From the sequence record NC_073085.1: a DNA stretch of 45,204 nt. One strand, 5' to 3'. The notes beneath the pieces were generated by a model, which was given only the letters and a program-made list of their open reading frames with translations, searched no databases and was not told the origin of the DNA. This DNA is from Escherichia phage vB_EcoS_011D5. This document shows positions 1 through 45,204 of the stretch, one piece after another (position 1 is the first letter of the stretch; every line of letters begins with the position of its first letter). Position numbers and translations under genes: made by a program.

Positions 1-115
1 ACCCATCGCTACGCCGTGCGGGAATTTCTTCTTGAGACGCGCCAGATCATGCTTGTACTGGTATGCGACGAGCAACGGCGCGCCGTTCAACTCCTCCACG
101 ATACTTTCCAGCGCG
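1..115. repeat. Terminal overlap: 1-115 identical to 45090-45204 (circular closure or terminal redundancy)
   Basis: Exact sequence identity of the window ends; helicase ORF is continuous across the junction. Confidence 0.9.
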
Positions 116-4551: not shown

Positions 4552-5337
4552 TTAACGGCGGCGACGTTTACGTGGTGCTTCGTCTTCGTCGTCTTCGTCC
4601 TCATCTTCGTCATCGCGTGGCTTACGACGTTTACGAGGTTTCTCATCTTCGTCGTCTTCGTCGTCATCGCGGCGCTTGGACTTTTTGGACTTGCGCGGCT
4701 TGTCGTCTTCGTCATCGTCATCACGACGTTTTGACTTTTTGGACTTGCGCGGGCTTTCATCTTCGTCATCATCGCCCAGGTCTTCGTCGGAGCAAGAAGA
4801 ACCGCCACCGCCGAAGGATTCACCATCATCGCGGAAGCGAAGACCCAGCAATCCCGCACCGAGGCCTTTACCGTTGGTATTATTCCACGCCCAAATATCC
4901 AGGGACACGTTGCAATAACAACCGGAGTAGATCTCCTGGCCTTCGATCTCGTCGCCTTCTATGGTCAGACCTTGTTCCGTCTGCTTCTCGCCGAGTGACG
5001 TTTGAATGATCGGCTGTTTGAACGATTTGGCGTTGATGTACAACATGCCTTCGAATTCTTCGGTTACTTCGTCGCGCTCGTCACCGTCGCGAACTGCGCA
5101 TTCCTTAGAATCCTGAGCGTAGTGACGGTCCATCCACTTATCAGCATTCTTCTCGGATTTCAGCTTGTCGGTGAGCACTGCGCGCGCTGCCGCTTCCACT
5201 TTGTCCACCTGCGGATCTTCTTTATCAAGAAGAATCACTGCACGGTATGCCGGTTTTTGTCCATCCTGTTTAGGGGTATCACGTTCCCAGATTTTCAGGA
5301 AACATACGCGCACATTTTTCAGGTTGACTTTAGCCAT
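4552..5337 (-). CDS. Putative single-stranded DNA-binding protein with mixed-charge repetitive C-terminal tail
   Basis: N-terminus MAKVNLKNVRV...YRAVILLDKEDP resembles phage SSB N-termini; C-terminal tandem repeats DDDEDE..PRKSKKSKRR; RBS GAGGA. Confidence 0.5.
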   Translation of the reverse strand: MAKVNLKNVRVCFLKIWERDTPKQDGQKPAYRAVILLDKEDPQVDKVEAAARAVLTDKLKSEKNADKWMDRHYAQDSKECAVRDGDERDEVTEEFEGMLYINAKSFKQPIIQTSLGEKQTEQGLTIEGDEIEGQEIYSGCYCNVSLDIWAWNNTNGKGLGAGLLGLRFRDDGESFGGGGSSCSDEDLGDDDEDESPRKSKKSKRRDDDDEDDKPRKSKKSKRRDDDEDDEDEKPRKRRKPRDDEDEDEDDEDEAPRKRRRR

Positions 5338-5427
5338 TTTCCAATTCCTCATTTTCACATGTATCGGGGTTATTATGAGCCACCCCGTTCGGCTTGGTTG
5401 CTAATCTACTTGGTTGCACCTAAGCGG

Positions 5428-7711: not shown

Positions 7712-8221
7712 TTAGTCTTCCAGTTCGAAATAGGTTTCGACGATTTCTTTCAGATCTTTGTGGAAATCTTCCACGTCGTCATCTTCCAGCTTGGCGATTG
7801 ATTTGATCTCGAACGCTTCCAGCAGGTCGTCAAATTCGTCGTTCGCATCGTCATCATCACCGCCTGCGATAATCGCGGCATACTGTTTGATTTCGTCGCG
7901 CATCTCTGCCAGCGGGTCGGCATCTTTCTTACCTTTGCCTTTCGCTGGTGCTTTTTTACCCTTCGCCGGTTTTTCGTCTTCGGCTTCATCGTCGTCATCT
8001 TCTACGACTTCTTTTTTGGCCTTACCTTTCGCCGTGGCTTTTTTACCTTTCGCCGGTGCTTCGTCTTCAGCGTCGTCATCTTCTACGACTTCTTTTTTGG
8101 CCTTAGCTGGCTTTTTATCTTCCTGCTTACCAACGGCAGCGCCCACGGTTTCATAATGTTTTGCGATGATTTCCAGTGCTACTACGCCGCGAGTGATCAG
8201 GTTTACGATTTGCTCAAACAT
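7712..8221 (-). CDS. Acidic early protein with tandem KKEVVEDDD-AEDE-PAKGKKA-AKGK repeats; first gene of the leftward operon
   Basis: ORF-track 7712..8449 trimmed to MFEQIVNL; RBS GGAGA; ~84 bp tandem DNA repeat at ~7970-8140; acidic C-terminus DEFDDLLEAF...EDDDVEDF. Confidence 0.6.
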   Translation of the reverse strand: MFEQIVNLITRGVVALEIIAKHYETVGAAVGKQEDKKPAKAKKEVVEDDDAEDEAPAKGKKATAKGKAKKEVVEDDDDEAEDEKPAKGKKAPAKGKGKKDADPLAEMRDEIKQYAAIIAGGDDDDANDEFDDLLEAFEIKSIAKLEDDDVEDFHKDLKEIVETYFELED

Positions 8222-8456
8222 GGTGTATCTCCGATTGGTTAAGTTTAGGTGTCGACCATTAACTTCGTCGGTGGCCTTAACATAGTGCCCGGTTGCGCGT
8301 TCTCCCTTTCGGGTAGTGGACCGGGTTATATAATCACGGTTGGGAATCCTGACACTTCGATCCGGCCCCTGCGTTGCCCCTCTCCAGTTTGCTTCCTGCA
8401 TCCTGTCGACGAGGTGAATATTAGATTGGTTGCAGAAGGGAGTCAACAACTAATTT

Positions 8457-8621: not shown

Positions 8622-8951
8622 ATGAATATCAAAGAAGCAATTGAAGTGTTATCTAATGCAATCCGCGGCGAAGCGGGTAAATCCTGGTATTACACAAATG
8701 CGGTGGATACTCTGTTATTTGAAGTGTCCAGATTATCGCGTGCTGAGAAGGAGCTTACCGCGAAGCTGGAATTACTCAACGGCACGGCAGCAAGCAAGCT
8801 GCAAAAGCACAATGAAGAAATGGAAGAATACAAAAAACAGGTTATCCGTTTGCGCGCCGAGGGCAAATCCTGGGCAATGATCGCTGAGTTGACAGGAATT
8901 AATCAGAGCACCGTGCGCTCCTGGGTACGCAATAATAAAACTTCGAAGTAA
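8622..8951 (+). CDS. HTH DNA-binding protein (putative early transcriptional regulator)
   Basis: C-terminal HTH-like SWAMIAELTGINQSTVRSWV; first gene of the rightward operon. Confidence 0.6.
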   Translation: MNIKEAIEVLSNAIRGEAGKSWYYTNAVDTLLFEVSRLSRAEKELTAKLELLNGTAASKLQKHNEEMEEYKKQVIRLRAEGKSWAMIAELTGINQSTVRSWVRNNKTSK

Positions 8952-8961
8952 GGCAACGGCA

Positions 8962-11226
8962 ATGAGCTTAATTAAATTCGCGGTAACACGACCCGCTAAA
9001 AAAGGCGAAAAAGCCAGGGCGGAAAACTTCCAGATGACCACCGATGAATTTTTCGAATTTATCAATGACGCGAAAGAAATCTCCTCGGTGCATATCAACA
9101 AGACGGAAGATAAAGCCGAGTATGCGCGCCGCAAGCGTAAGGCCGATGGCATCGTAGCTTATACCAGTGACGGCCTGCGCCGCAAGACCAGTGCGGTGGA
9201 CCGCTCGATCCTGTTCTTCGATATTGACCGCACCGACACTCGCACCCTACGCCGCTGCCGTAAGGCTTTCATCGACGCGGGGCTGGAGCACGTATTCCAC
9301 ACAACCACCGGCGACCGCCACCCGCTGAAAGGCGGCACGCGTTGCGCCCGTTTCCTGGTACTCACTGACAAGCCTGTACCGGCGGAAGACCTGGGCCGTG
9401 TCCAGTATGCGCTATTACACCAACTTGGCCTGTCAGATGTGGACTTCGACGATTGCACGAAAGACACAAACCGCCTGATGTACCTGCCGCACCAGCAGTC
9501 TGTCATTAAGTGTCACTACGGCAAACGTGCCCGCGTCCGTCGTCTGCTCCGCCTGGCGGATACGCTTGGCGTGGAGAAGGAAGAAGTACGCCGCGAGCTT
9601 ACCCAGGGCGACGACGCAGTGGCAGACGGCATTCTGGACTGGTGCTTCCAGGCAGGATTCGAGGAGTTATCTTCCGGTCGCGGTTATGAAGTGCCGTGCC
9701 CGAACGAACATCTGCACAGCGGCGAAGGGTCGACGGCTATCATGGTCAAGGATGGCGAGATCCGTTTCAAGTGTATGCACACCGGAAACGAGTGTTGCTC
9801 GGAGCTAAATAGACACCAGCACCTGGCGCTACGTCTTATCGGGATACCGGACCACCTGAACGTCGAGCCGCACAACATGTCACGTAAGCAAATCGCCGCC
9901 ATCCTCCCAGGGCTGGACGACGAGGAAGTCGAATCCTTATATGAACATATTGTTGATGCGGTTGGCGACGGCGAAGAATACGGCGTGTGCACCGATGCGG
10001 ATCTGGATAACGAGCCGGTCGCACTATTCAGTAAGCACGACCCGATCATCGAAGGGCTGATTAACTTTAAATCGACCTGGTATATGGCGGGCGAGTCGAA
10101 TATAGGTAAGTCCTTCTACGTGCTGGGGCAGATGGGCGCGGTTGCCGCGGGTATCCCGTTTGGCGGTGCGAAGGTCGTCCAGTCTCATTGCTTCTATTTC
10201 GACGCGGAAGGTGGCGAAGCCTCCAACCAGCGTAAAGAAGCATTGCAGATTAAATATGAGCACGACCTGGACAAGCTGCACATTATAGACCTGCAGTCCC
10301 GCGGCTGGGATATCACCAGCAAGTCCGGTTTGCGCGAAGTTATCAGTTTTATCAACCGCACCGCTAACGGCGAACCGGTTGGCCTGGTGGCGTTCGACTC
10401 ACTCAACCAGACTGTTGCGCTGCGGTCCGCCGATGCTAAACCGTTTGACGAGAACAACGCCAGCGATATGGGTGAAGTGGTCAAAGCGCTGAAAGCCATT
10501 GCGGAAAACACAGGTGGCAGTGCGGGCGTCATCCACCACCCGGCGAAGGGTGCAAACGGCAGCAGATCTCCCCGTGGGTCCGGCGCACTGCATGGCGCTG
10601 TCGATTCTGCGTTCTTCCTGGAACAGCCGGACGACAACCAGCCGGGACAACTCAACCTGTATCACGAAAAATCACGTAACGGCATCAAGCAAGCGCCGCG
10701 TGGCTTCGTCCTGCTCAAGTGCAAGGTGAAGGTGGATCTCCGCAAGTCAGAAGCGTTCGCGTCGCACCAGTCCACCAGCACCGGGCCAGACTTCGGCGAC
10801 GTTGTTGCCGGTTGGGACGTCAAACCAATTGCATCCACGCCACGCGATGAGACTCTGTACCTCGTACCGGTCGCCCTGGCACCGTTCGCTATAGAACAGG
10901 CGAAGGCGGCGGGCAAAGCCGCAGTTAAGGAAGAGAACACCGCCGGTCCGCGCAACGAAAAAGAGAAAGTGCTTTATGCGGCCCTGGAAAAACTGATGGA
11001 AGATAACCCGAGCCACACTGGATTCAGTAAATCGGCAATTGTCCGCCAGGCGGGACTCGCGAAGGGAGGCACTTCGACGAAGGCAATCGACGATATGGTC
11101 GAGCGCGGCGTGATTGGTTTTTATACAGACCCGCACACCGGGGCCATCTATGGGTCGTCGAATTTGGTCATCAAATCGGATATTCCCATAACGCTTTCGG
11201 CGACCGATGATGACCTGAAAGATTAA
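8962..11226 (+). CDS. Bifunctional primase/helicase (AEP-type prim-pol N-domain, zinc-binding linker, RecA/DnaB-like ATPase)
   Basis: ILFFDIDR...FHTTTGDRH (AEP motifs); CPNEHLHS...CMHTGNECC; Walker A GESNIGKS; Walker B VAFDSLNQ. Confidence 0.8.
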   Translation: MSLIKFAVTRPAKKGEKARAENFQMTTDEFFEFINDAKEISSVHINKTEDKAEYARRKRKADGIVAYTSDGLRRKTSAVDRSILFFDIDRTDTRTLRRCRKAFIDAGLEHVFHTTTGDRHPLKGGTRCARFLVLTDKPVPAEDLGRVQYALLHQLGLSDVDFDDCTKDTNRLMYLPHQQSVIKCHYGKRARVRRLLRLADTLGVEKEEVRRELTQGDDAVADGILDWCFQAGFEELSSGRGYEVPCPNEHLHSGEGSTAIMVKDGEIRFKCMHTGNECCSELNRHQHLALRLIGIPDHLNVEPHNMSRKQIAAILPGLDDEEVESLYEHIVDAVGDGEEYGVCTDADLDNEPVALFSKHDPIIEGLINFKSTWYMAGESNIGKSFYVLGQMGAVAAGIPFGGAKVVQSHCFYFDAEGGEASNQRKEALQIKYEHDLDKLHIIDLQSRGWDITSKSGLREVISFINRTANGEPVGLVAFDSLNQTVALRSADAKPFDENNASDMGEVVKALKAIAENTGGSAGVIHHPAKGANGSRSPRGSGALHGAVDSAFFLEQPDDNQPGQLNLYHEKSRNGIKQAPRGFVLLKCKVKVDLRKSEAFASHQSTSTGPDFGDVVAGWDVKPIASTPRDETLYLVPVALAPFAIEQAKAAGKAAVKEENTAGPRNEKEKVLYAALEKLMEDNPSHTGFSKSAIVRQAGLAKGGTSTKAIDDMVERGVIGFYTDPHTGAIYGSSNLVIKSDIPITLSATDDDLKD

Positions 11227-11319
11227 ATTTTGCGCGCATTGGTTGCCATTTTGAGTGTTTTTAGCTGGTCGCATTGGTTGCCGTGTGGTGTAAATATAGT
11301 GAATAGTTATGCAATAAAA

Positions 11320-11490
11320 CTGCATAAAGTAAGCGGGACAAAAAGCGGGACAGACCAGGGGCGGGACAAAGCGGGACAGCACCCCTGTCCCACCCCGGAT
11401 GACGCGGCCTGGCGGGGAGCGGGACAGGCGGGACAAACCCCAGTCTTTCAGACTAGACGGGGGTCAGTTGGCCCCCTCGTCTGAGACTGC
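11320..11490 (+). repeat. Composite repeat element copy A: 6 direct GCGGGACA(R) units, an inverted TGTCCC and a conserved GC hairpin block
   Basis: Direct reading; ~85-90 percent identical to 28560-28730. Confidence 0.85.
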
Positions 11491-11705
11491 ATAAAATCCG
11501 GGATTGCATAATACACGGCAGCATATTGGAAATCGCGGTCGTCGCTGAACTAGGCAACCAATGCGAGTTGCAGAATGGTGGGTGGGGAATGCAGTTTGCA
11601 GTTACAGCAGATAGCGATCAACTTTTTCATGCGCATGATTAATATTGGTTGCATTCGTGCCAGCACCCTGCTAGATTGGTTGCACACCAACAAGAGGACT
11701 GAACA

Positions 11706-16553: not shown

Positions 16554-16649
16554 ACCGCATAGCCTGCCGATTTGGTGGGCTTTTTTGTGCCTGTTATAAT
16601 CCCCCTTAGATGGCAGGGCCGTCTCCTATGTTGCCGATGGTCGGCGCAT

Positions 16650-17222
16650 ATGAACAAAAGGGCTTATATCATGGCAGAAATCAAAGTTAAGGGCCGACGC
16701 GCCAAACTGGACGGACGAGTAGCAGTAACCCCGCGCCGTAAACCAGGCGAGCAAACCGAGCACACCAATCTCGGACCTGAAATAGAGTACGGAAAGCGCC
16801 GTAAAGGCGGCAAATGTGGACGCCCTACTGACTACAGATCCGTCTACTGCGACCAGCTTCGCCGCTATTTTGCCGACGCCGACGCCTGGCAGGTCAACTA
16901 CTCAGATAAAGGCGCTGCGCAAGTAATCCCCCGCAACAAAATGCCAACCTTCGGGCGATTTGCCGCGGAAATAGGCGTGGGTGTAGCTTGCCTGTATCGC
17001 TGGGCGCGTGCGCATGAGGAGTTCGCCGAGGCGATGGCTGACGCTATGGAGTTGCAGAAAACCTTCCTGATGGAAGCTGGCGGTGTGACCATCGCGGCGG
17101 GCTTCGCTACATTCCTGCTTAAAGCAAACCACGGCGTCCGCGACGATGTGCCGCTGGATGACGACGAAGATGATAACGGCGACGTCGTTGTGGAACCTAC
17201 CGGCAAAGGCCAGGGCGAATAA
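16650..17222 (+). CDS. Terminase small subunit
   Basis: HTH-like MPTFGRFAAEIGVGVACLYRWARAHEEFAEAM typical of TerS; directly upstream of TerL; acidic C-terminus. Confidence 0.7.
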   Translation: MNKRAYIMAEIKVKGRRAKLDGRVAVTPRRKPGEQTEHTNLGPEIEYGKRRKGGKCGRPTDYRSVYCDQLRRYFADADAWQVNYSDKGAAQVIPRNKMPTFGRFAAEIGVGVACLYRWARAHEEFAEAMADAMELQKTFLMEAGGVTIAAGFATFLLKANHGVRDDVPLDDDEDDNGDVVVEPTGKGQGE

Positions 17223-18607
17223 TGCGTAACTATGCGGCAGAACACCGCGCACTGGAGCGCGCGATCGCAAAGCGCAACCGACCGCCACGCCCGACACGCG
17301 TTGCGCAGGCCGTCCGCCTTTACCAGCCTGATTGCTTGCCGCACCAGGTTGAACTACTGCGCGACACGAAGACTAAAATCCTCGGCCTGTGTTCCGGCTT
17401 CGGTGGCGGAAAGTCGTGGGTCGCTGCGCGTAAGGTCATCCAGCTTTTAACCCTGAACCCCGGTCATGACGGCATCGTTACAGAACCGACTATTCCCCTC
17501 CTGGTTAAAATCATGTACCCGGAATTGGAAAAGGCGTTTGATGAGGCTGGATTCCGGTGGAAGTTCAATAAGCAGGACAAGATCTATAACGTGCTGGTGA
17601 AAGGGAAATGGACCCGCGTTATCTGTGAATCAATGGAGAACTATACCCGCTTGATCGGGGTTAACGCCGCGTGGATTGTTGCCGATGAATTCGACACTAC
17701 TAAGCAAGACGTCGCGCTGGCGGCATATCACAAATTGCTCGGTCGTCTGCGTGCTGGCTTCGTCCGCCAGTTCGTCATCGTGTCAACGCCTGAAGGCTAC
17801 CGGGCGATGTATCAAATTTTCGAGGTGGAGAAAGACAACCAGAAACGCTTGATCCGGGCGAAGACCACGGACAACCACCATTTACCGGCAGACTTTATCG
17901 ACACGCTGCGTAGTCAGTACCCAGCTAACCTGATCGACGCGTACCTGAACGGCCTGTTTGTTAACCTTACGTCGGGCGCGGTGTACAAGATGTTCAACCG
18001 CGAGGAGAACGCCAGCACCGAAGAAGTGCAGCCGGACGACACGCTGATTATCGGTATGGACTTTAACGTTACGAAGATGGCGGCGGTTGTGTACGTCAGA
18101 CGGCAGCGAGTCACCGAGAACAAGGAGTTCCGAGACGAGATTCACGCGGTGGATGAATTTGTGGACCTGTTTGATACCCCGGCTATGATTGAGGCGATCG
18201 AGGAGCGCTACCCGGATCATTGTGCTGCCGGTCGTGTTGTCGTTTACCCGGATAGCAGCGGCAAATCACGCAAGACGGTCAACGCGTCGTCGTCCGATAT
18301 CGCGCAACTGGAAGACGCAGGCTTTGATGTGGAGTATGACAGCGTTAACCCGCCTGTTAAAGACCGATTGATCGCGATGAATACGATGATGTGCAACTCG
18401 AAGGGCGTGCGCCAGTATTTTGTCAACCTGGATAAATGCCCTACACTAGCGAAATGTCTGGAACAGCAGGTGTACGACCTGAAGAAAGGCGAACCGGATA
18501 AAACTGCCGGTGTGGACCACATGAATGACGCGGCGGGCTACCCTATTGCGCACTTGTTCCCTGTGATTCGTCCGATCGCCGTTGTTCCAGCCGTAGACTT
18601 CTACTAA
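17222..18607 (+). CDS. Terminase large subunit
   Basis: Walker A LGLCSGFGGGKSW; Walker B WIVADEFDT; 461 aa; precedes portal. Confidence 0.85.
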   Translation: MRNYAAEHRALERAIAKRNRPPRPTRVAQAVRLYQPDCLPHQVELLRDTKTKILGLCSGFGGGKSWVAARKVIQLLTLNPGHDGIVTEPTIPLLVKIMYPELEKAFDEAGFRWKFNKQDKIYNVLVKGKWTRVICESMENYTRLIGVNAAWIVADEFDTTKQDVALAAYHKLLGRLRAGFVRQFVIVSTPEGYRAMYQIFEVEKDNQKRLIRAKTTDNHHLPADFIDTLRSQYPANLIDAYLNGLFVNLTSGAVYKMFNREENASTEEVQPDDTLIIGMDFNVTKMAAVVYVRRQRVTENKEFRDEIHAVDEFVDLFDTPAMIEAIEERYPDHCAAGRVVVYPDSSGKSRKTVNASSSDIAQLEDAGFDVEYDSVNPPVKDRLIAMNTMMCNSKGVRQYFVNLDKCPTLAKCLEQQVYDLKKGEPDKTAGVDHMNDAAGYPIAHLFPVIRPIAVVPAVDFY

Positions 18608-28409: not shown

Positions 28410-28730
28410 CGAAGCGGGACAGGCGGGACGTCCCGTTTTGTCCCGCCACCATTAAACCGCATATATACTCACTTTCATTGCATAAACTAAAAGCGGGACA
28501 GGGGTGCTGTCCCGATCTGTCCCGCCCCTCAAAAGTGAATGGCTATGCGGTTTTTCTGCATAAAACAAACGGGACAGAAAGCGGGACAGAATGAGGCGGG
28601 ACAAAGCGGGACAGCACCCCTGTCCCAGTCAGTGCTGCCGCTGGTTTTAGCCGATCGGGACAGGCGGGACAAAGCCCAGTCTTTCAGACTAGACGGGGGT
28701 CAATGGCCCCCCTCGTCTGAGACTGAATAA
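28410..28730 (+). repeat. Composite repeat region copy B: ~12 GCGGGACA/TGTCCCGC units in both orientations, GGGACGTCCC palindrome, conserved hairpin block
   Basis: Direct reading; 28560-28730 is ~85-90 percent identical to 11320-11490. Confidence 0.85.
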
Positions 28731-28793
28731 GGTTTGTTTTAAATTCGCTGATACAATGACCGACGGCAACTGCATAAAAAGGGGGACTGCATA

Positions 28794-31436
28794 ATGGCAG
28801 ATCAGGCAGCGGGCATCACGCTCAAGGCGGACGTCGCGCAAATTAAAACGGCTAATACTGTGCTGGACACATTCGCGCAGAAATCCGAGAACACAGAACA
28901 GAAAGTAAAGAAATTAAACGACACACTCGGCAAGTCGAAAAAGGTTACTGGCGACGCCGCGGGCGGAATGGAAAAGTTAGCGACTGAATCGCAGCGCGCC
29001 GCCGACGGCATGACGAAACAGGAGCGACTAGCCAGCCGATTAGGCATGTCGACCAAAAACCTGGGATTTGCTTCACGGAACGCGGCATTCCAGTTACAGG
29101 ATATTGCGGTAACGCTTGAGATGGGTATGCCGGTGCACCGCGTCATGCTTCAGCAGTTACCACAGCTAACCGGCGCATTCGGCGGATTAGGTAACACGCT
29201 GCGTTATGTTGCGGGCTTCCTCGGCCCAGTAGGGATCGGACTTGCGGCAGTAACGGCGACATTAGGCGTGGGCGTGGCAATCACGTCACGGGCAGAGAAC
29301 CAGGTAGCCGCGCTTAATAAGACGCTGGCGCTGTCCGGTAATATTTCAGGCCTCACAGCTAACCAGATCCTTGTGCTGTCCGAGAACGCTGAGCGCATGG
29401 GCGGGTCATTTCGCAAGACGCGTGACACAATCCAGGCGCTGGCGGCGGCGGGTGTGAAAGCGGGTGGTGACTTCGGCGCATTGGCTAAGGTAGTTAATGA
29501 CTTTGCGAAGGTGTCCAGCCAGCCGATCGAGGATGTGGTGGCGGCGGTGGCGAAGCTGTCAACCGACCCCGTTGGCGGACTGCGTGCGCTGGCGGATAAG
29601 TATCACGTCGTAAACGAAGCGCAGATCCAGCAGGTACAGTCGCTCGTTGATGCGGGTCGTGAGACAGACGCAGTTGCGTTGGCTAACAAAACAGCCGCTG
29701 CGTCGTTCACCAGTATGACCAATGAGATCAAGGCGAACATGGGTACGCTTGAGCGATCTATGAACGTCGTCACATCGGCAGCCAAATCAATGTGGGATGC
29801 CATCCTGGATGTGGGCCGCGCGCAGTCCTCCAATGAGTCCGAGATGAAAGCGCGCGAATCACTACAGCGCATGACCACGGCTTACTATGCCGAGATGAAA
29901 GCGGTAAACGCTGCCGGTGGGGTAATGACTGAAGCGCAGAAAGCACGTATTAACATGCTTTACAGCGAACTGGTCGCCCAGGAAAAAGTGGTGGCGTCGC
30001 TCACCCTGCGTAACCGTGCTGAGCGAGACAACGCCCGCGCCGCAGACGAATCCGCAAAGGCGAACGAGGAGGCCAACCGCACTGCCCGTGACCGCGCCGC
30101 GTTCGAGAAGGAATACGCCACCAACGCTAAGAAGCGCGCCGACGAGATCGCCCGCCTCAATTTGCTGAATAAGCGCGGCGTTATTGATGAGAAAGAACTA
30201 GCCGAGGCGGTGAAGCAGGTAAACGAGCGGTACAAAGACCCAGCCCCGAAAAAGGCCGCGGCTGTTCGCGTGGATGCCGGTATGAAAATGCTGGAAGTCG
30301 CACGGAGCGAACTGGCCCAGCTTCGAGAATCCGGCAAGCAGATCGAAGCCAACGCGTCTACGCAGACCCGCACGCAACGCGCTCAAGCGGCCTTAAACAA
30401 GCTGATCGCCGACAATGAGCAGTTAATCGCTGCGAGCAAAGAAAGAGCGCTAACGGCAGCAGAAAAGCAGCAATTAGTCGAGTTCGGGCGCGTGAAGGAA
30501 GTCCGCGAGCAGATCGTCGAAGAAGCCAAATTGCTGGATGCGAAAGAGCAGCAGGTTAAGGCGCACGCGCAGATCGATGCCTTCGTTAAGAACCAGAACG
30601 CCGAACTAAAAGCCACCGCCGCGGGGTATGCGCTTTCCACTCGCGAAGCGGCAAACCTGCGCGAAGAATTGCAGCTAATTGACCGCCTGAAGCGGGTTGG
30701 CGCTAACGATACCGATATTGACAAGGCGGTGTCTAAGCTGCGAGAAGTGCAGGAAGCACAGACCGGCGCTAACGCCTCGTTATGGGATGGATTCAGTCGC
30801 GGGCTTAAGGATAGCGTGGATGAAATGGGTAACGGATATACGCAGATGGCGTCGCTCACGAAATTTACATTCAGCGCTATGCAGGACACGATGAACGAGT
30901 TTTTCGAGACTGGTAAGCTGAACGCAAAGGATATGGTTAAGTCCATCCTGAGCGAATTAATCAAGCTGGCTACCTCGCAGGCGTTCAAGTCCATCGTTAG
31001 CGCTTTCGGTGGTGACGGCGGCAAAAACGGATTGTTCGGCGCTATCTTCTCTGGCCTCACTAAGAATGCGGACGGCGGAGCGTACACAGGCGGCAATCTC
31101 GCGGCCTATTCGGGGAAAGTGGTAAGCCAGCCTACCTTTTTCAGTTATGGCGTCCAGGCGTTCGCTAAGGGCGCTGGGTTGATGGGTGAGGCTGGACCCG
31201 AGGCCATCATGCCACTGAAGCGCGGGCCGGACGGGAAACTGGGCGTTGCCGCGTCTGGCGCAGGCGGTGGTATGGTCGTGACGACTAACGTTTACACGGG
31301 GACCGGTAAGACGGACACCAGTGTTAGCGGGCCAGACCCACGTACCGCGCAGGCGTTCGGCAAGCAAATCACCGAGGCGGTGAAGTCCGAGATCGTGAAA
31401 GCGACTAAACCAGGTGGTGTACTTTACAAACGATGA
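28794..31436 (+). CDS. Tail tape measure protein
   Basis: 880 aa Ala/Gln-rich helical protein downstream of G/GT; Gly-rich segments. Confidence 0.85.
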   Translation: MADQAAGITLKADVAQIKTANTVLDTFAQKSENTEQKVKKLNDTLGKSKKVTGDAAGGMEKLATESQRAADGMTKQERLASRLGMSTKNLGFASRNAAFQLQDIAVTLEMGMPVHRVMLQQLPQLTGAFGGLGNTLRYVAGFLGPVGIGLAAVTATLGVGVAITSRAENQVAALNKTLALSGNISGLTANQILVLSENAERMGGSFRKTRDTIQALAAAGVKAGGDFGALAKVVNDFAKVSSQPIEDVVAAVAKLSTDPVGGLRALADKYHVVNEAQIQQVQSLVDAGRETDAVALANKTAAASFTSMTNEIKANMGTLERSMNVVTSAAKSMWDAILDVGRAQSSNESEMKARESLQRMTTAYYAEMKAVNAAGGVMTEAQKARINMLYSELVAQEKVVASLTLRNRAERDNARAADESAKANEEANRTARDRAAFEKEYATNAKKRADEIARLNLLNKRGVIDEKELAEAVKQVNERYKDPAPKKAAAVRVDAGMKMLEVARSELAQLRESGKQIEANASTQTRTQRAQAALNKLIADNEQLIAASKERALTAAEKQQLVEFGRVKEVREQIVEEAKLLDAKEQQVKAHAQIDAFVKNQNAELKATAAGYALSTREAANLREELQLIDRLKRVGANDTDIDKAVSKLREVQEAQTGANASLWDGFSRGLKDSVDEMGNGYTQMASLTKFTFSAMQDTMNEFFETGKLNAKDMVKSILSELIKLATSQAFKSIVSAFGGDGGKNGLFGAIFSGLTKNADGGAYTGGNLAAYSGKVVSQPTFFSYGVQAFAKGAGLMGEAGPEAIMPLKRGPDGKLGVAASGAGGGMVVTTNVYTGTGKTDTSVSGPDPRTAQAFGKQITEAVKSEIVKATKPGGVLYKR

Positions 31437-44751: not shown

Positions 44752-45204
44752 TTGCGCGCCTTTTTAGCTTTCATGTATTCCATCAAGTCGTCCTGAATAT
44801 CTCGCTTACTGTCGCGACGTTCGGCGACCAGTTCATCCAGTGTCCCGCGCGCCTGGATAATGTAGACGAATACCGGACGAGGGTGTCCGGCTTGCATCTG
44901 GCGAACCGGCCCTATACGCTCCACAATCTGCGAAAAGTGCTCATAGTTCCAGGTGTCTGAGAAGATAGCAAGGTGGTGCCCCCCATCCTGCAGGTTAAGT
45001 CCGTGACCCGCTGACGCTGGGTGTGCAAACATGATGGGGATCTCGCCCCTGTTCCACGCTTCCATATCCTTATTTCCTTGCTTACCCTTACCCATCGCTA
45101 CGCCGTGCGGGAATTTCTTCTTGAGACGCGCCAGATCATGCTTGTACTGGTATGCGACGAGCAACGGCGCGCCGTTCAACTCCTCCACGATACTTTCCAG
45201 CGCG
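44748..45204 (-). CDS. SNF2/DEAD-like helicase, C-terminal part (helicase motif VI-like HPASAGHGLNLQ)
   Basis: ORF-track 44748..45188 has no true start (GTG in-frame) and continues upstream into the duplicated end. Confidence 0.8.
   Translation of the reverse strand, partial: ALESIVEELNGAPLLVAYQYKHDLARLKKKFPHGVAMGKGKQGNKDMEAWNRGEIPIMFAHPASAGHGLNLQDGGHHLAIFSDTWNYEHFSQIVERIGPVRQMQAGHPRPVFVYIIQARGTLDELVAERRDSKRDIQDDLMEYMKAKKARK

What the first reader, a model, noticed from the sequence alone, without database searches (positions are those of the whole stretch)
11320..11490. Duplicated ~170 bp composite element of tandem GCGGGACA(R) units plus a conserved GC hairpin, present twice in the genome
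Copy A (11320-11490) and copy B (28560-28730) share the same architecture in the same orientation: TGCATAA, then four direct GCGGGACA(G/A) units spaced 10-16 bp, an inverted CCTGTCCC, two more direct units, then a conserved block CCCAGTCTTTCAGACTAGACGGGGGTCA..GGCCCCCTCGTCTGAGACTG containing a GC-rich hairpin with no T-run. Stretches of 28-33 nt are identical between copies. Both copies are noncoding and upstream of plus-strand genes: A between the primase-helicase and the 11706 operon, B directly before the tape measure start codon. Tandem direct repeats with one inverted unit are the classic layout of iterons or multimeric regulator-binding arrays. High conservation between two distant noncoding sites implies function or recent duplication, possibly a mobile miniature element.
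Basis: seen in the sequence. Interest (0 to 1): 0.8.

Follow-up and report, generated by a model that had tools for sequence, protein, structure and literature searches.

The report
Duplicated iteron-like array, probable phage origin
A coliphage carries two copies of a conserved non-coding module, made of short repeated protein-binding-type sites plus a DNA hairpin, that most likely serves as the site where its own primase-helicase starts DNA replication, though this has not been tested.

Summary
The window is a complete Dhillonvirus genome, nearly identical to Escherichia phage vB_EcoS_L-h 1M. GCGGGACA occurs 16 times against 2.1 expected, and 14 copies lie in two non-coding regions, 11227-11705 and 28410-28793. 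About 197 nt are shared between the regions.

Both copies sit at the same two loci in all 157 related phage records. They are absent from E. coli genomes and plasmids, so this is neither an artefact nor a currently mobile element. The Sodalis phage SO-1 GenBank record already flags both regions as repeat regions. I found no functional study.

Across genomes the CGGGACA units, their spacing (11-12, 15-16, 9-10, 46-49, 9-10 nt) and the hairpin stems are near invariant, while spacers and the loop drift.

Distant relatives have equivalent arrays immediately after the homologous helicase-primase gene, each with a lineage-specific unit. The unit classes track the recognition helix of a winged-helix domain that I found at that protein's C-terminus. 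The protein combines an archaeo-eukaryotic-type primase, a RepA-like helicase and this winged helix.

Best reading (about 0.5): iteron-type origin or replisome-loading sites, duplicated as in phage P4 ori/crr, with the hairpin as a possible priming signal. The main rival is a transcriptional or RNA boundary element.

The parts
8962..11226 (+). Helicase-primase gene (754 aa), the candidate initiator. It has an N-terminal archaeo-eukaryotic-type (AEP) primase domain, an AAA_25 / RepA-like helicase core (aa 357-531), and a C-terminal winged helix (aa ~665-740, nt ~10954-11181).
8622..8951 (+). Small HTH protein (109 aa; HTH_23 / sigma-70 region-4-like), the alternative candidate binder.
   Evidence: It is not homologous to the Cro-like HTH_3 proteins at the same position in eiAU, SP-031 and loci L038, L039, L097 and L099.
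11227..11705 (.). Non-coding region A, between the helicase-primase gene and the next plus-strand gene cluster. It corresponds to 'region B' of the SO-1 GenBank record.
11285..11332 (+). AT-rich tract (73% AT against 45.5% for the genome). It holds AGTGAATAGTTATGCA and the inverted repeat TTATGCA-N7-TGCATAA (11307-11313 / 11321-11327).
   Evidence: GTGAATAGTTATGCA is also present before the array of Salmonella phage FSL SP-031.
11333..11378 (+). Copy A, four direct (G)CGGGACA units. Core starts at 11334, 11346, 11362 and 11372; spacing 12, 16, 10.
   Evidence: At least 90% conserved in 33 copies from 18 genomes.
11384..11391 (-). Copy A, inverted unit (CCTGTCCC). It forms a 7-bp hairpin or palindrome with unit 4.
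   Evidence: It is degenerate across genomes (GTCCC / GCCCC / GGGACGTCCC palindrome).
11419..11435 (+). Copy A, two abutting direct units with spacing 9.
11441..11489 (+). Copy A, conserved imperfect hairpin CAGTCTTTCAGACTAGACGGGGG-loop-CCCCCTCGTCTGAGACTG.
   Evidence: As plus-strand RNA, -28.4 kcal/mol, z -4.2; minus strand -25.1, z -2.9; as DNA, -12.4 on both strands. Stems are invariant and the loop varies across 16 variants, with 0 compensatory pairs. There is no T-run.
11488..11522 (+). TGCATAA-N10-TGCATAA direct repeat, followed by one copy of the dispersed ACGGCAGC octamer (11515-11522).
28410..28793 (.). Non-coding region B, between the tail-assembly chaperone gene and the tape-measure gene. 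It corresponds to 'region A' of the SO-1 record.
28412..28447 (.). Palindromic unit cluster b1: two direct and two inverted units. HK578 annotates the equivalent sequence as a rho-independent terminator.
   Evidence: (D18, I3, I4). In SO-1 it is a perfect 34-bp palindrome.
28479..28526 (.). TGCATAA plus unit cluster b2. It is an inverted copy (94%) of the cluster at 28595-28626.
   Evidence: I2. Folding 28488-28632 gives -77.8 kcal/mol, z -9.2. The long inverted repeat is not conserved as such in other genomes, only unit-made inverted repeats are.
28534..28730 (+). Copy B of the shared module: AGTGAAT..TGCATAAA, four direct units (starts 28570, 28582, 28597, 28607), an inverted unit (28619-28626), two units (28656, 28665), and the hairpin (28677-28725).
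28749..28794 (+). TGATACAAT (extended -10-like, 28749-28757), then TGCATAA-N10-TGCATAA (28771-28777, 28788-28794). The second TGCATAA repeat overlaps the ribosome-binding site and ATG of the tape-measure gene.
   Evidence: Read from the sequence; motif positions. The consensus promoter scan did not call it.

Best explanation
The two elements are cis-acting DNA sites of the phage replication machinery. Each is an iteron-type origin or replisome-loading region, and the module is present twice.

Proposed mechanism.
1. Each module offers six direct CGGGACA heptamers at fixed spacing, plus one or more inverted ones, next to an AT-rich tract. (Shown.)
2. A phage-encoded sequence-specific domain binds these heptamers. 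The most likely binder is the winged helix at the C-terminus of the AEP-primase / RepA-like-helicase fusion, whose gene ends immediately upstream of copy A. (Inferred.)
3. Binding concentrates and loads the presumably hexameric helicase-primase at the AT-rich tract. (Inferred.)
4. Once the DNA is unwound, the conserved GC hairpin forms on single-stranded DNA and serves as a structured start signal for the primase domain, as the ssi hairpins of RSF1010 do for RepB'. (Inferred; the weakest step.)
5. Copy A is the ancestral position, because relatives have an array only there. (Inferred from comparison.)
6. Copy B, in the tail operon, is a second origin or a P4-crr-like helper site. It arose by an old duplication shared at least in plan with Eiauvirus. 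It carries its own promoter-like sequence for the tape-measure gene. (Inferred.)

Shown here: the anatomy, its conservation, its linkage to the gene, the domain architecture of the protein, and the group-level co-variation between unit class and recognition helix.
For: 1. Enrichment and clustering of the unit.

2. Selection acts on units and spacing, not on spacer sequence.
- In 33 copies from 18 genomes, TGCATAAA, every CGGGACA and the hairpin stems are at least 90% conserved, while spacers are 50-70%.
- Spacing is 11-12, 15-16, 9-10, 46-49, 9-10 in both copies of three genomes and in the single available copy of a relative at 68% protein identity.
- Paralogue identity is 0.91 in the array and 0.93 in the hairpin, but 0.62 in the spacer.

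3. Synteny with the initiator-type gene across genera. A 300-900 bp non-coding gap follows directly after the homologous helicase-primase gene (43-48% identity), with direct plus inverted arrays of a lineage-specific unit, an AT-rich tract and a roughly 50-nt hairpin.
- FSL SP-031: GGGGAGA, 6 direct + 1 inverted, the same count as here, with spacing that includes 11 and 17.
- eiAU: CGCCCCG.
- L038 and L099: GGGGATC.
- L098: AGGGAT.
- L039 and L097: (AC)TCGCAA.

5. The N-terminus of the recognition helix falls into classes that follow the unit class.
- CGGGACA: KGGT(S/N)T(K/T).
- TCGCAA: TS(G/A)(N/H)Y(K/G)K.
- GGGAT(C): GG(K/G)RRP.
- GGGGAGA: GGDRYK.
- CGCCCCG: HGDRKK.
These classes do not follow the second, promoter-associated TTGGnnGC motif class.

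6. The small upstream HTH is non-homologous between Dhillonvirus and the others, although the array layout is kept.

7. Precedent in the literature. In pRN1 the only indispensable non-coding region lies downstream of the gene for ORF904, a prim/pol-helicase-winged-helix protein. P4 alpha has a C-terminal winged-helix origin-binding domain (PMC2777425).

8. Two-locus sharing also occurs in eiAU: a 40-nt block at 90% identity lies both after the helicase-primase gene and before the tape-measure gene.
Against: - No experiment links either site to replication.
- GC skew only mirrors transcription direction and marks neither site.
- The co-variation between winged helix and unit is at the level of five clades. 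It is therefore confounded with phylogeny.
- Winged helices also serve protein-protein contacts.
- A second origin inside a late tail operon is odd. FSL SP-031 manages with one copy. Kagunavirus and Jerseyvirus relatives (32% identity) have no array after the gene.
- The hairpin stems show no compensatory change within the genus.
- The hairpin folds better as plus-strand RNA than as the minus strand.
- In both Dhillonvirus and eiAU a related hairpin lies 60-110 nt before the tape-measure start, which fits an RNA or expression role.
- Each module has one hairpin orientation, unlike the paired ssiA/ssiB of RSF1010 (own knowledge).
- AT-richness next to copy B is modest (63%).
Confidence: 0.5

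Rival explanations
1. Transcription or RNA boundary element. The arrays are operators or enhancer-like sites for a phage regulator, for example the small HTH protein. The hairpin acts in the transcript as an attenuator, a processing site or a stabiliser. Together they would separate early replication genes from the next cluster (copy A) and set the dose of tape-measure and distal tail proteins (copy B).
For: - Both copies lie in the plus-strand transcription direction at operon junctions.
- Promoter-like sequences follow them: TTGCAT-17-TAGATT at 11649-11677, and TGATACAAT at 28749-28757 (read).
- The hairpin is more stable as plus-strand RNA (-28.4 kcal/mol, z -4.2) than as the minus strand (-25.1).
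- eiAU has a related hairpin just before its tape-measure gene.
- HK578 annotators called the first unit palindrome a terminator.
- Region B as RNA would form a 32-bp duplex, a potential RNase III substrate.
Against: - There is no U-tract after the hairpin, and the consensus scan calls no plus-strand terminator in either region (its only two calls, in region B, are on the minus strand and no more than the shuffles give).
- The phage otherwise uses canonical GGGGCC..GGCCCCTTTTT terminators (D5).
- There is no Rfam match.
- The long duplex of region B is not conserved in Ioannina, SO-1 or HK578.
- Fixed unit spacing with free spacer sequence points to a DNA-protein complex.
- The array is tied to the helicase-primase gene in genera where no copy precedes the tape-measure gene.
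- The small HTH is not homologous across lineages that keep the same array layout.
Confidence: 0.25
2. A different DNA-level cis site bound by a phage protein. Candidates are a packaging or concatemer-processing signal, a genome-condensation or pairing site that brings two distant loci together, or an injection-stop signal of the T5 type (own knowledge).
For: - There are two distant copies in the same orientation.
- Palindromes and direct repeats are mixed, as in such sites.
- Binding-site-like conservation.
Against: - The ancestral position is next to the replication gene, not next to the terminase genes at 16572-18607.
- No partition or ParB-type gene was seen in the annotations read.
- There is no evidence of two-step injection in this group.
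Confidence: 0.1
3. A non-coding RNA gene or RNA sponge. The GGGACA repeats would be presented in a transcript to titrate an RNA-binding protein, or would form a put-like antitermination RNA present in two copies.
For: - Strong predicted folding.
- Two copies lie upstream of long operons, as with putL/putR of HK022 (own knowledge).
- GGA-containing units occur in three lineages.
Against: - Unit sequences in eiAU (CGCCCCG) and in L039/L097 (TCGCAA) have no GGA.
- Most units are predicted to be paired or are not presented in loops.
- There are no compensatory changes.
- There is no Rfam hit.
- No promoter is evident immediately upstream of either module.
Confidence: 0.07
4. Selfish miniature mobile element, recent duplication or assembly artefact, without function for the phage.
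For: - CTGCATAA occurs on both sides of copy A, which resembles a target-site duplication.
- Sub-block variants are shared between copies in a mosaic way, suggesting exchange between them.
Against: - The same two loci are occupied in 157 records.
- There are no copies elsewhere in these genomes, in E. coli, in plasmids or in other IMG/VR contigs.
- There are no terminal inverted repeats.
- TGCATAA is itself a conserved internal motif.
- Strong purifying selection acts on units and stems while the spacers diverged between the copies.
Confidence: 0.02

Closest known systems
Satellite phage P4 ori and crr, bound by the alpha protein (primase-helicase with a C-terminal winged-helix origin-binding domain)
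   Same: - Two separated non-coding regions of one genome share arrays of a short repeat of 7-8 nt.
- The candidate binder is a single polypeptide with the order primase, then helicase, then C-terminal winged helix.
- One of the two regions lies close to that gene.
(P4 facts: the domain order and the winged helix are from PMC2777425. The ori/crr octamer iterons are from my own knowledge of Ziegelin et al. 1993 and Flensburg & Calendar 1987, not re-read here.)
   Different: - The domains are not homologous. P4 alpha has a DnaG-type primase and an SF3 helicase. This protein has an AEP primase fold and an AAA_25 / RepA-like core.
- The unit sequence is unrelated.
- The spacing between the two sites is 17 kb, and one site lies inside a tail operon.
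- Whether both sites are required is unknown.
oriV of plasmid RSF1010, with RepC (iteron binding), RepA (helicase) and RepB' (AEP-type primase acting on ssiA/ssiB hairpins)
   Same: - The layout is an iteron array, then a GC-rich and an AT-rich segment, then a conserved hairpin.
- Its helicase core is AAA_25, with a weak profile hit to RepA 1g8y.
- In effect the three RSF1010 functions appear fused in one protein.
   Different: - There is no sequence similarity of the element to any plasmid.
- The units are 7-8 nt rather than about 20 bp.
- There is one hairpin orientation per module rather than two opposed ssi sites (RSF1010 details are from my own knowledge).
- The hairpin's role is purely inferred.
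pRN1 ORF904 (prim/pol + SF3 helicase + winged helix) and its downstream essential non-coding region
   Same: - A self-contained initiator with a C-terminal winged helix.
- The only indispensable non-coding region lies directly downstream of its gene (PMC2777425).
   Different: - It is an archaeal plasmid with an SF3 helicase.
- No iteron array has been described for it, and its cognate site was not identified.
'Region A' and 'region B' repeat_region features of the Sodalis phage SO-1 GenBank record (GQ502199)
   Same: These are the very same two elements in a congeneric phage. They are described as 'direct, inverted and palindromic repeat sequences; sequence similarity with region A/B; possible ...'.
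   Different: It is an annotation note only, and the tool truncated it. I found no unit definition, comparative analysis, binder or function in the papers searched.

Membership tests
Iteron-type replication origin (plasmid or phage) | Several direct repeats of one short sequence in non-coding DNA | tested here: met
   Six direct CGGGACA units per module, 16 against 2.06 expected genome-wide.
Iteron-type replication origin (plasmid or phage) | Adjacent AT-rich, easily unwound segment | tested here: inconclusive
   73% AT over 48 nt beside copy A, but only 63% over 43 nt beside copy B, against a genome value of 45.5%. No unwinding calculation or assay was done.
Iteron-type replication origin (plasmid or phage) | Genetic linkage to the gene of the initiator | tested here: met
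   Copy A starts about 60 nt after the stop codon of the helicase-primase gene. The same linkage holds in seven relatives from four or more lineages.
Iteron-type replication origin (plasmid or phage) | Sequence-specific binding of the initiator to the repeats | not testable with these tools
   Only indirect evidence: a predicted winged helix, and clade-level co-variation of its recognition helix with the unit.
Iteron-type replication origin (plasmid or phage) | Replication starts at, or depends on, the site | not testable with these tools
   GC skew is uninformative because it follows transcription.
P4 ori/crr system | Two separate cis regions sharing the same short iteron | tested here: met
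   Regions A and B lie 17.2 kb apart and share the same units and spacing.
P4 ori/crr system | Initiator homologous to P4 alpha (DnaG-type primase + SF3 / D5-type helicase) | tested here: not met
   The protein has AAA_25 and an AEP fold, and no D5 or Toprim families were found. It is an analogue, not a member.
RSF1010-type ssi (single-strand initiation) hairpin | Hairpin specifically recognised and primed by an AEP-type primase; two sites on opposite strands | tested here: inconclusive
   A stable hairpin and a RepB'-like primase fold are present. However, there is a single orientation per module, no similarity to plasmids, and priming cannot be tested.
Intrinsic (rho-independent) terminator | GC-rich stem-loop directly followed by a U/T run | tested here: not met
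   No T-run follows the 11441-11489 or 28677-28725 hairpins, and the scan finds none on the plus strand. The b1 palindrome has an internal TTTT only.
Miniature inverted-repeat or other mobile element | Terminal inverted repeats, target-site duplication, and variable insertion sites among genomes | tested here: not met
   No terminal inverted repeats. The same two loci are occupied in 157 records. The element is absent from the host, plasmids and other viral contigs.
Described RNA families (Rfam 15) | Match to a covariance model | tested here: not met
   No hit at gathering threshold. With the E-value threshold the only hits are spurious miRNA-precursor matches caused by the inverted repeat.

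The most novel reading that the evidence does not exclude
The helicase-primase is a one-protein initiator, in effect RepB' + RepA + RepC in a single chain. Its six winged helices read the six phased CGGGACA heptamers of a module. The inverted unit clusters of region B direct head-to-head loading. The invariant hairpin is a single-strand priming signal. The two modules cooperate over 17 kb like P4 ori and crr, so that replication firing inside the tail operon is coupled to tape-measure gene expression. This would define a previously uncharacterised origin class, shared with lineage-specific units by Dhillonvirus, Eiauvirus, Cornellvirus and uncultured relatives.
Probability: 0.2. Interest if true: 0.65.

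Novelty: new member of a known kind. Interest (0 to 1): 0.45.

Why it matters
Dhillonviruses are common, therapeutically used coliphages and are part of model collections such as BASEL and the SECphi phages. Their origin of replication and the way their fused primase-helicase is targeted to DNA are unknown.

If the arrays are the origin, three things follow.
- They give a defined, portable cis element and a cognate DNA-binding domain with natural specificity variants (CGGGACA, GGGGAGA, GGGGATC, TCGCAA, CGCCCCG). These would be useful for phage engineering, phage-dependent plasmid amplification and studies of helicase loading by AEP-RepA fusions.
- They would explain two large non-coding gaps that automatic annotation fills with spurious 'hypothetical proteins'.
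- They would also explain a mis-called terminator.

If instead the rival holds, the element is a new type of operon-boundary signal.

Tried and rejected
- Rfam at gathering and permissive thresholds, and tRNA/tmRNA scans: nothing real.
- Consensus promoter and terminator scans: one marginal promoter overlapping the hairpin loop, and no plus-strand terminator.
- GC-skew origin mapping: confounded by transcription direction.
- Covariation in the hairpin within the genus: 0 compensatory pairs because the stems are invariant. Only between-genus changes (eiAU; L038/L099 against L098) suggest pairing.
- Concerted evolution of the two copies: same-genome paralogue identity is barely above different-genome identity (0.753 against 0.740). 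Gene conversion is therefore at most local.
- IMG/VR scan for a loose version of the hairpin core: 82 loci, but apart from Dhillonvirus and eiAU they are chance GC-rich hairpins or tRNA arms.
- Host-derived or plasmid-derived element: no BLAST match.
- Literature: no paper in the library discusses these regions. A search for GCGGGACA returned only unrelated primer hits. The P4 primary paper is not held.
- A DnaA-box reading of (A/T)GTGAATAG: 1-3 mismatches to the consensus, too weak to claim.
- A CsrA-sponge reading of the GGA-containing units: not consistent across lineages.
- Kagunavirus and Jerseyvirus relatives (32% identity): no array after the gene; a reverse-strand Cro-like gene lies there instead.
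Full report
**What the window is.** The first and last 115 bases are identical (D4), so the window is a complete phage genome. It is 99-100% identical to Escherichia phage vB_EcoS_L-h 1M (OM262540, 45,204 bp), a member of Dhillonvirus, the HK578 / SO-1-like siphophages. Genes from about 2.0 to 8.4 kb are on the minus strand: DNA polymerase, SSB and a nuclease. From 8.6 to 37.6 kb they run on the plus strand: a helix-turn-helix (HTH) protein, the helicase-primase, small genes, lysis genes, terminase, head and tail.

**Check of the observation.**
- The sequence is as described.
- GCGGGACA occurs 16 times against 2.06 expected (0 of 100 shuffles reach 16). Fourteen copies lie in two non-coding regions, 11227-11705 and 28410-28793.
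- The two singles are a hairpin stem at 1327 and a site inside an ORF at 44841.
- The two modules align from AGTGAAT (11298 / 28534) to the end of the hairpin block (11494 / 28730). This includes a 33-nt identical stretch and a 78-nt stretch at 92%.
- Region B has two more unit clusters, at 28412-28447 and 28491-28526. They are palindromic or inverted versions of the 32-nt cluster that sits inside the module (I2-I4, D18).
- One-nucleotide indels between copies and between orthologues exclude coding.

**Distribution.**
- Both regions are found in all 157 Dhillonvirus-like records of the phage collection, always at least twice per genome and always in the same two places.
- The hairpin core occurs in IMG/VR only in 16 Dhillonvirus contigs, 13 of them with two matches.
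- A looser hairpin pattern adds only Edwardsiella phage eiAU; the other hits are chance.
- There is no match in 5,426 complete E. coli genomes or 72,556 plasmids.
- The element is therefore not an artefact, not host-derived and not currently mobile.
- The GenBank record of Sodalis phage SO-1 already marks both regions as repeat_region features: 'direct, inverted and palindromic repeat sequences; sequence similarity with region A/B; possible ...' (note truncated).
- The HK578 record calls the first unit palindrome a rho-independent terminator.
- I found no paper that analyses these regions.

**What is under selection.**
- In an alignment of 33 copies from 18 genomes, TGCATAAA, each CGGGACA unit and the hairpin stems are at least 90% conserved. 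The spacers and the hairpin loop vary.
- Unit spacing is fixed at 11-12, 15-16, 9-10, 46-49 and 9-10 nt. This holds in both copies of the window and of phage Ioannina, and in the single available copy of a metagenomic relative whose helicase-primase is only 68% identical.
- Between the two copies, identity is 0.91 in the array and 0.93 in the hairpin. It is 0.62 in the spacer and 0.65 in the inverted-unit block, where orthologues keep 0.74-0.91.
- The duplication is therefore old, and units, phasing and hairpin are held by purifying selection.
- Same-genome paralogues are hardly more alike than paralogues from different genomes (0.753 against 0.740). However, some sub-block variants are shared between loci in a mosaic way, so local exchange may occur.
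- Conserved phasing combined with free spacer sequence is what a multi-protein complex on duplex DNA predicts. An RNA function predicts it less well.

**The hairpin.**
- CAGTCTTTCAGACTAGACGGGGG-loop-CCCCCTCGTCTGAGACTG folds to -28.4 kcal/mol as plus-strand RNA (z -4.2) and -25.1 as the minus strand. As DNA it gives -12.4 on either strand.
- It has no T-run and no Rfam match.
- Across 16 sequence variants the stems never change and the loop changes freely in sequence and length, so there are 0 compensatory pairs.
- Variable loop length argues against a duplex inverted-repeat site for a dimer. It favours a folded single strand whose stem sequence is itself read.
- eiAU has the same inner sequence, GACGGGGG..CCCCTCGTC, with a different outer stem that still pairs.

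**Comparative anatomy, the key result.** Homologues of the helicase-primase at 43-48% identity are each followed by a 300-900 bp non-coding gap built to the same plan but from different units.

| Phage or locus | Unit | Further features |
|---|---|---|
| Salmonella phage FSL SP-031 | GGGGAGA | 6 direct + 1 inverted, the same count as here; spacing includes 11 and 17; preceded by GTGAATAGTTATGCA, a 15-mer shared with the window; followed by a G/C hairpin |
| eiAU | CGCCCCG | see the two-locus note below |
| L038 and L099 | GGGGATC | hairpin after the array |
| L098 | AGGGAT | hairpin after the array |
| L039 and L097 | (AC)TCGCAA | hairpin after the array |

- Each lineage also has a roughly 50-nt hairpin after the array. 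Its outer stem changes compensatorily between L038/L099 and L098.
- SP-031 has no copy before its tape-measure gene. The position after the helicase-primase gene is therefore the ancestral one.
- eiAU, like Dhillonvirus, shares a block between the two positions (40 nt, 90%).
- More distant relatives, Kagunavirus and Jerseyvirus at 32% identity, lack the array.

**The candidate binder.**
- The 754-aa protein has an AAA_25 / RepA-like core and a weak profile hit to RSF1010 RepA.
- The start of its recognition helix falls into five classes that follow the five unit classes. The classes stay constant within a class across substantial divergence.
- A second, genome-wide motif, ATTGGTTGC(A) and its variants TTGGCAGC, TTGGCCGC and TTGGCTGC, varies independently. 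Dhillonvirus, eiAU and L097 share TTGGTTGC but differ in unit and in winged-helix class. L097 and L039 share unit and class but differ in that motif.
- The small HTH upstream is a Cro-like HTH_3 protein in six relatives. In Dhillonvirus it is an unrelated HTH_23 protein, yet the array layout is kept.
- All of this is clade-level correlation and is confounded with phylogeny. It is a lead, not proof.

**Interpretation.** The best-supported reading, at about 0.5, is an iteron-type origin or replisome-loading site for a self-contained initiator, present twice. It works like P4 ori/crr and like RSF1010 oriV. P4 has two distant iteron regions read by the winged helix of a primase-helicase; the domain facts come from PMC2777425 and the iteron details from my own knowledge. 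RSF1010 oriV has iterons plus hairpins primed by the AEP-type RepB', with the RepA helicase. The element is a member of neither family: the P4 domains are not homologous and there is no sequence similarity to plasmids. pRN1, whose essential non-coding region lies just downstream of its prim/pol-helicase-winged-helix gene, is a further parallel.

**Main rival, at about 0.25.** The element could be an operon-boundary element acting through a regulator and an RNA hairpin. Four points favour this.
- Both copies lie upstream of promoter-like sequences.
- The hairpin is somewhat more stable as plus-strand RNA.
- A related hairpin lies just before the tape-measure gene in eiAU.
- Region B would form a 32-bp RNA duplex (z -9.2), although that duplex is not conserved in other genomes.

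Other DNA-level roles, an RNA gene and a selfish element are less likely.

**Novelty and value.** The raw observation is already recorded in one GenBank annotation. The following appear to be undescribed in the sources I could search:
- the unit definition;
- the conserved phasing;
- the cross-genus series of lineage-specific arrays;
- the AEP-RepA-winged-helix architecture of the linked protein;
- the correlation between unit class and recognition helix.

If the element is confirmed, it is a new member of a known kind, an iteron origin with a fused initiator. It has one unusual feature, a second copy inside the tail operon. Interest is moderate.

Noticed in passing
window, whole genome (e.g. 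1216, 5525, 7249, 8133, 11515, 13027 ... 33492): The octamer ACGGCAGC, extended (A)ACGGCAGC(G/A), occurs 33 times against 2.6 expected. Twenty-six copies are on the plus strand. Between 1 and 34 kb, 25 of 27 are on the plus strand regardless of gene orientation. After 34.7 kb the count is 3 plus and 5 minus. The octamer is also enriched in FSL SP-031 (18 copies) and L039 (21 copies). The window and Ioannina carry one copy in the non-coding region after the array (11515; L005 40404), and L037, L038, L039 and SP-031 have this octamer or a one-base variant there. The distribution is polar, resembling Chi or KOPS sites; its function is unknown.
   Followed up: partly
window 1568/1580, 5393/5409, 8425, 11238/11273, 11554, 11644/11675, 12229, 15008/15031, 22823/22837, 38924, 41786/41797, 43695/43712: A second dispersed motif, ATTGGTTGC(A), has 13 exact copies, mostly in pairs at the starts of gene clusters. 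At 11644-11683 it overlaps the -35 box and the start region of a promoter-like TTGCAT-17-TAGATT. Lineage-specific variants exist (TTGGCAGC, TTGGCCGC, TTGGCTGC). Dense arrays of it fill both large non-coding gaps of eiAU (23 copies). It is probably an operator or promoter element of an unidentified regulator.
   Followed up: partly
window 11307-11327, 11488-11511, 28479, 28557, 28771-28794, 43216: TGCATAA occurs 13 times against 5.9 expected. It is invariant at the left edge of each module and forms the inverted repeat TTATGCA-N7-TGCATAA in copy A. It also forms a direct pair, TGCATAA-N10-TGCATAA, after each module. In region B that pair overlaps the Shine-Dalgarno sequence and start codon of the tape-measure gene, which suggests a translational or transcriptional operator.
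   Followed up: no
window 1-115 and 45090-45204: The two ends are identical over 115 bp. This is either a short direct terminal repeat or an overlap left by circular assembly. Other Dhillonvirus records are opened at different points.
   Followed up: no
window 21652, 24864, 27695, 37660, 40603: A family of canonical intrinsic terminators, GGGGCC-N4-GGCCCCTTTTT, follows major structural genes. This shows the phage uses ordinary terminators elsewhere, unlike the T-less hairpin of the element.
   Followed up: no
window 4552-5358 (-) and 7712-8449 (-): Two minus-strand ORFs contain long internal repeats that encode alternating acidic (D/E) and basic (K/A/G/P) tracts (D1-D3, D6, D8, D10). The first belongs to the SSB region. 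The second is PHROG 3127, of unknown function. They may be nucleic-acid-binding low-complexity tails.
   Followed up: no
phage collection hits OQ221563.1, PQ843332.1: A record named 'Acinetobacter phage NJ01' is about 94% identical to these coliphages over both regions, and one 'Campylobacter' record also matches. The host labels look doubtful. Record P-GXEC-L2P5 is 88,607 bp with 7-8 matching places, which suggests a concatenated or double-genome assembly.
   Followed up: no
L095 about 4745-4940 (Raoultella phage RP180) and L096 about 5151-5369 (SETP7): In Kagunavirus and Jerseyvirus the space after the helicase-primase gene holds a reverse-strand Cro/CI-like HTH gene instead of a unit array. 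The gene is unannotated in RP180. TGAATAGT-containing promoter-like sequences lie next to it.
   Followed up: partly
L036 (Edwardsiella phage eiAU-183) 42123-43017 + 1-221 and 9425-9543: The gap of about 1.1 kb before the eiAU tape-measure gene also contains a reverse-strand ORF (gp54) of unknown function. Separately, a tail gene carries three perfect 39-bp tandem repeats.
   Followed up: no
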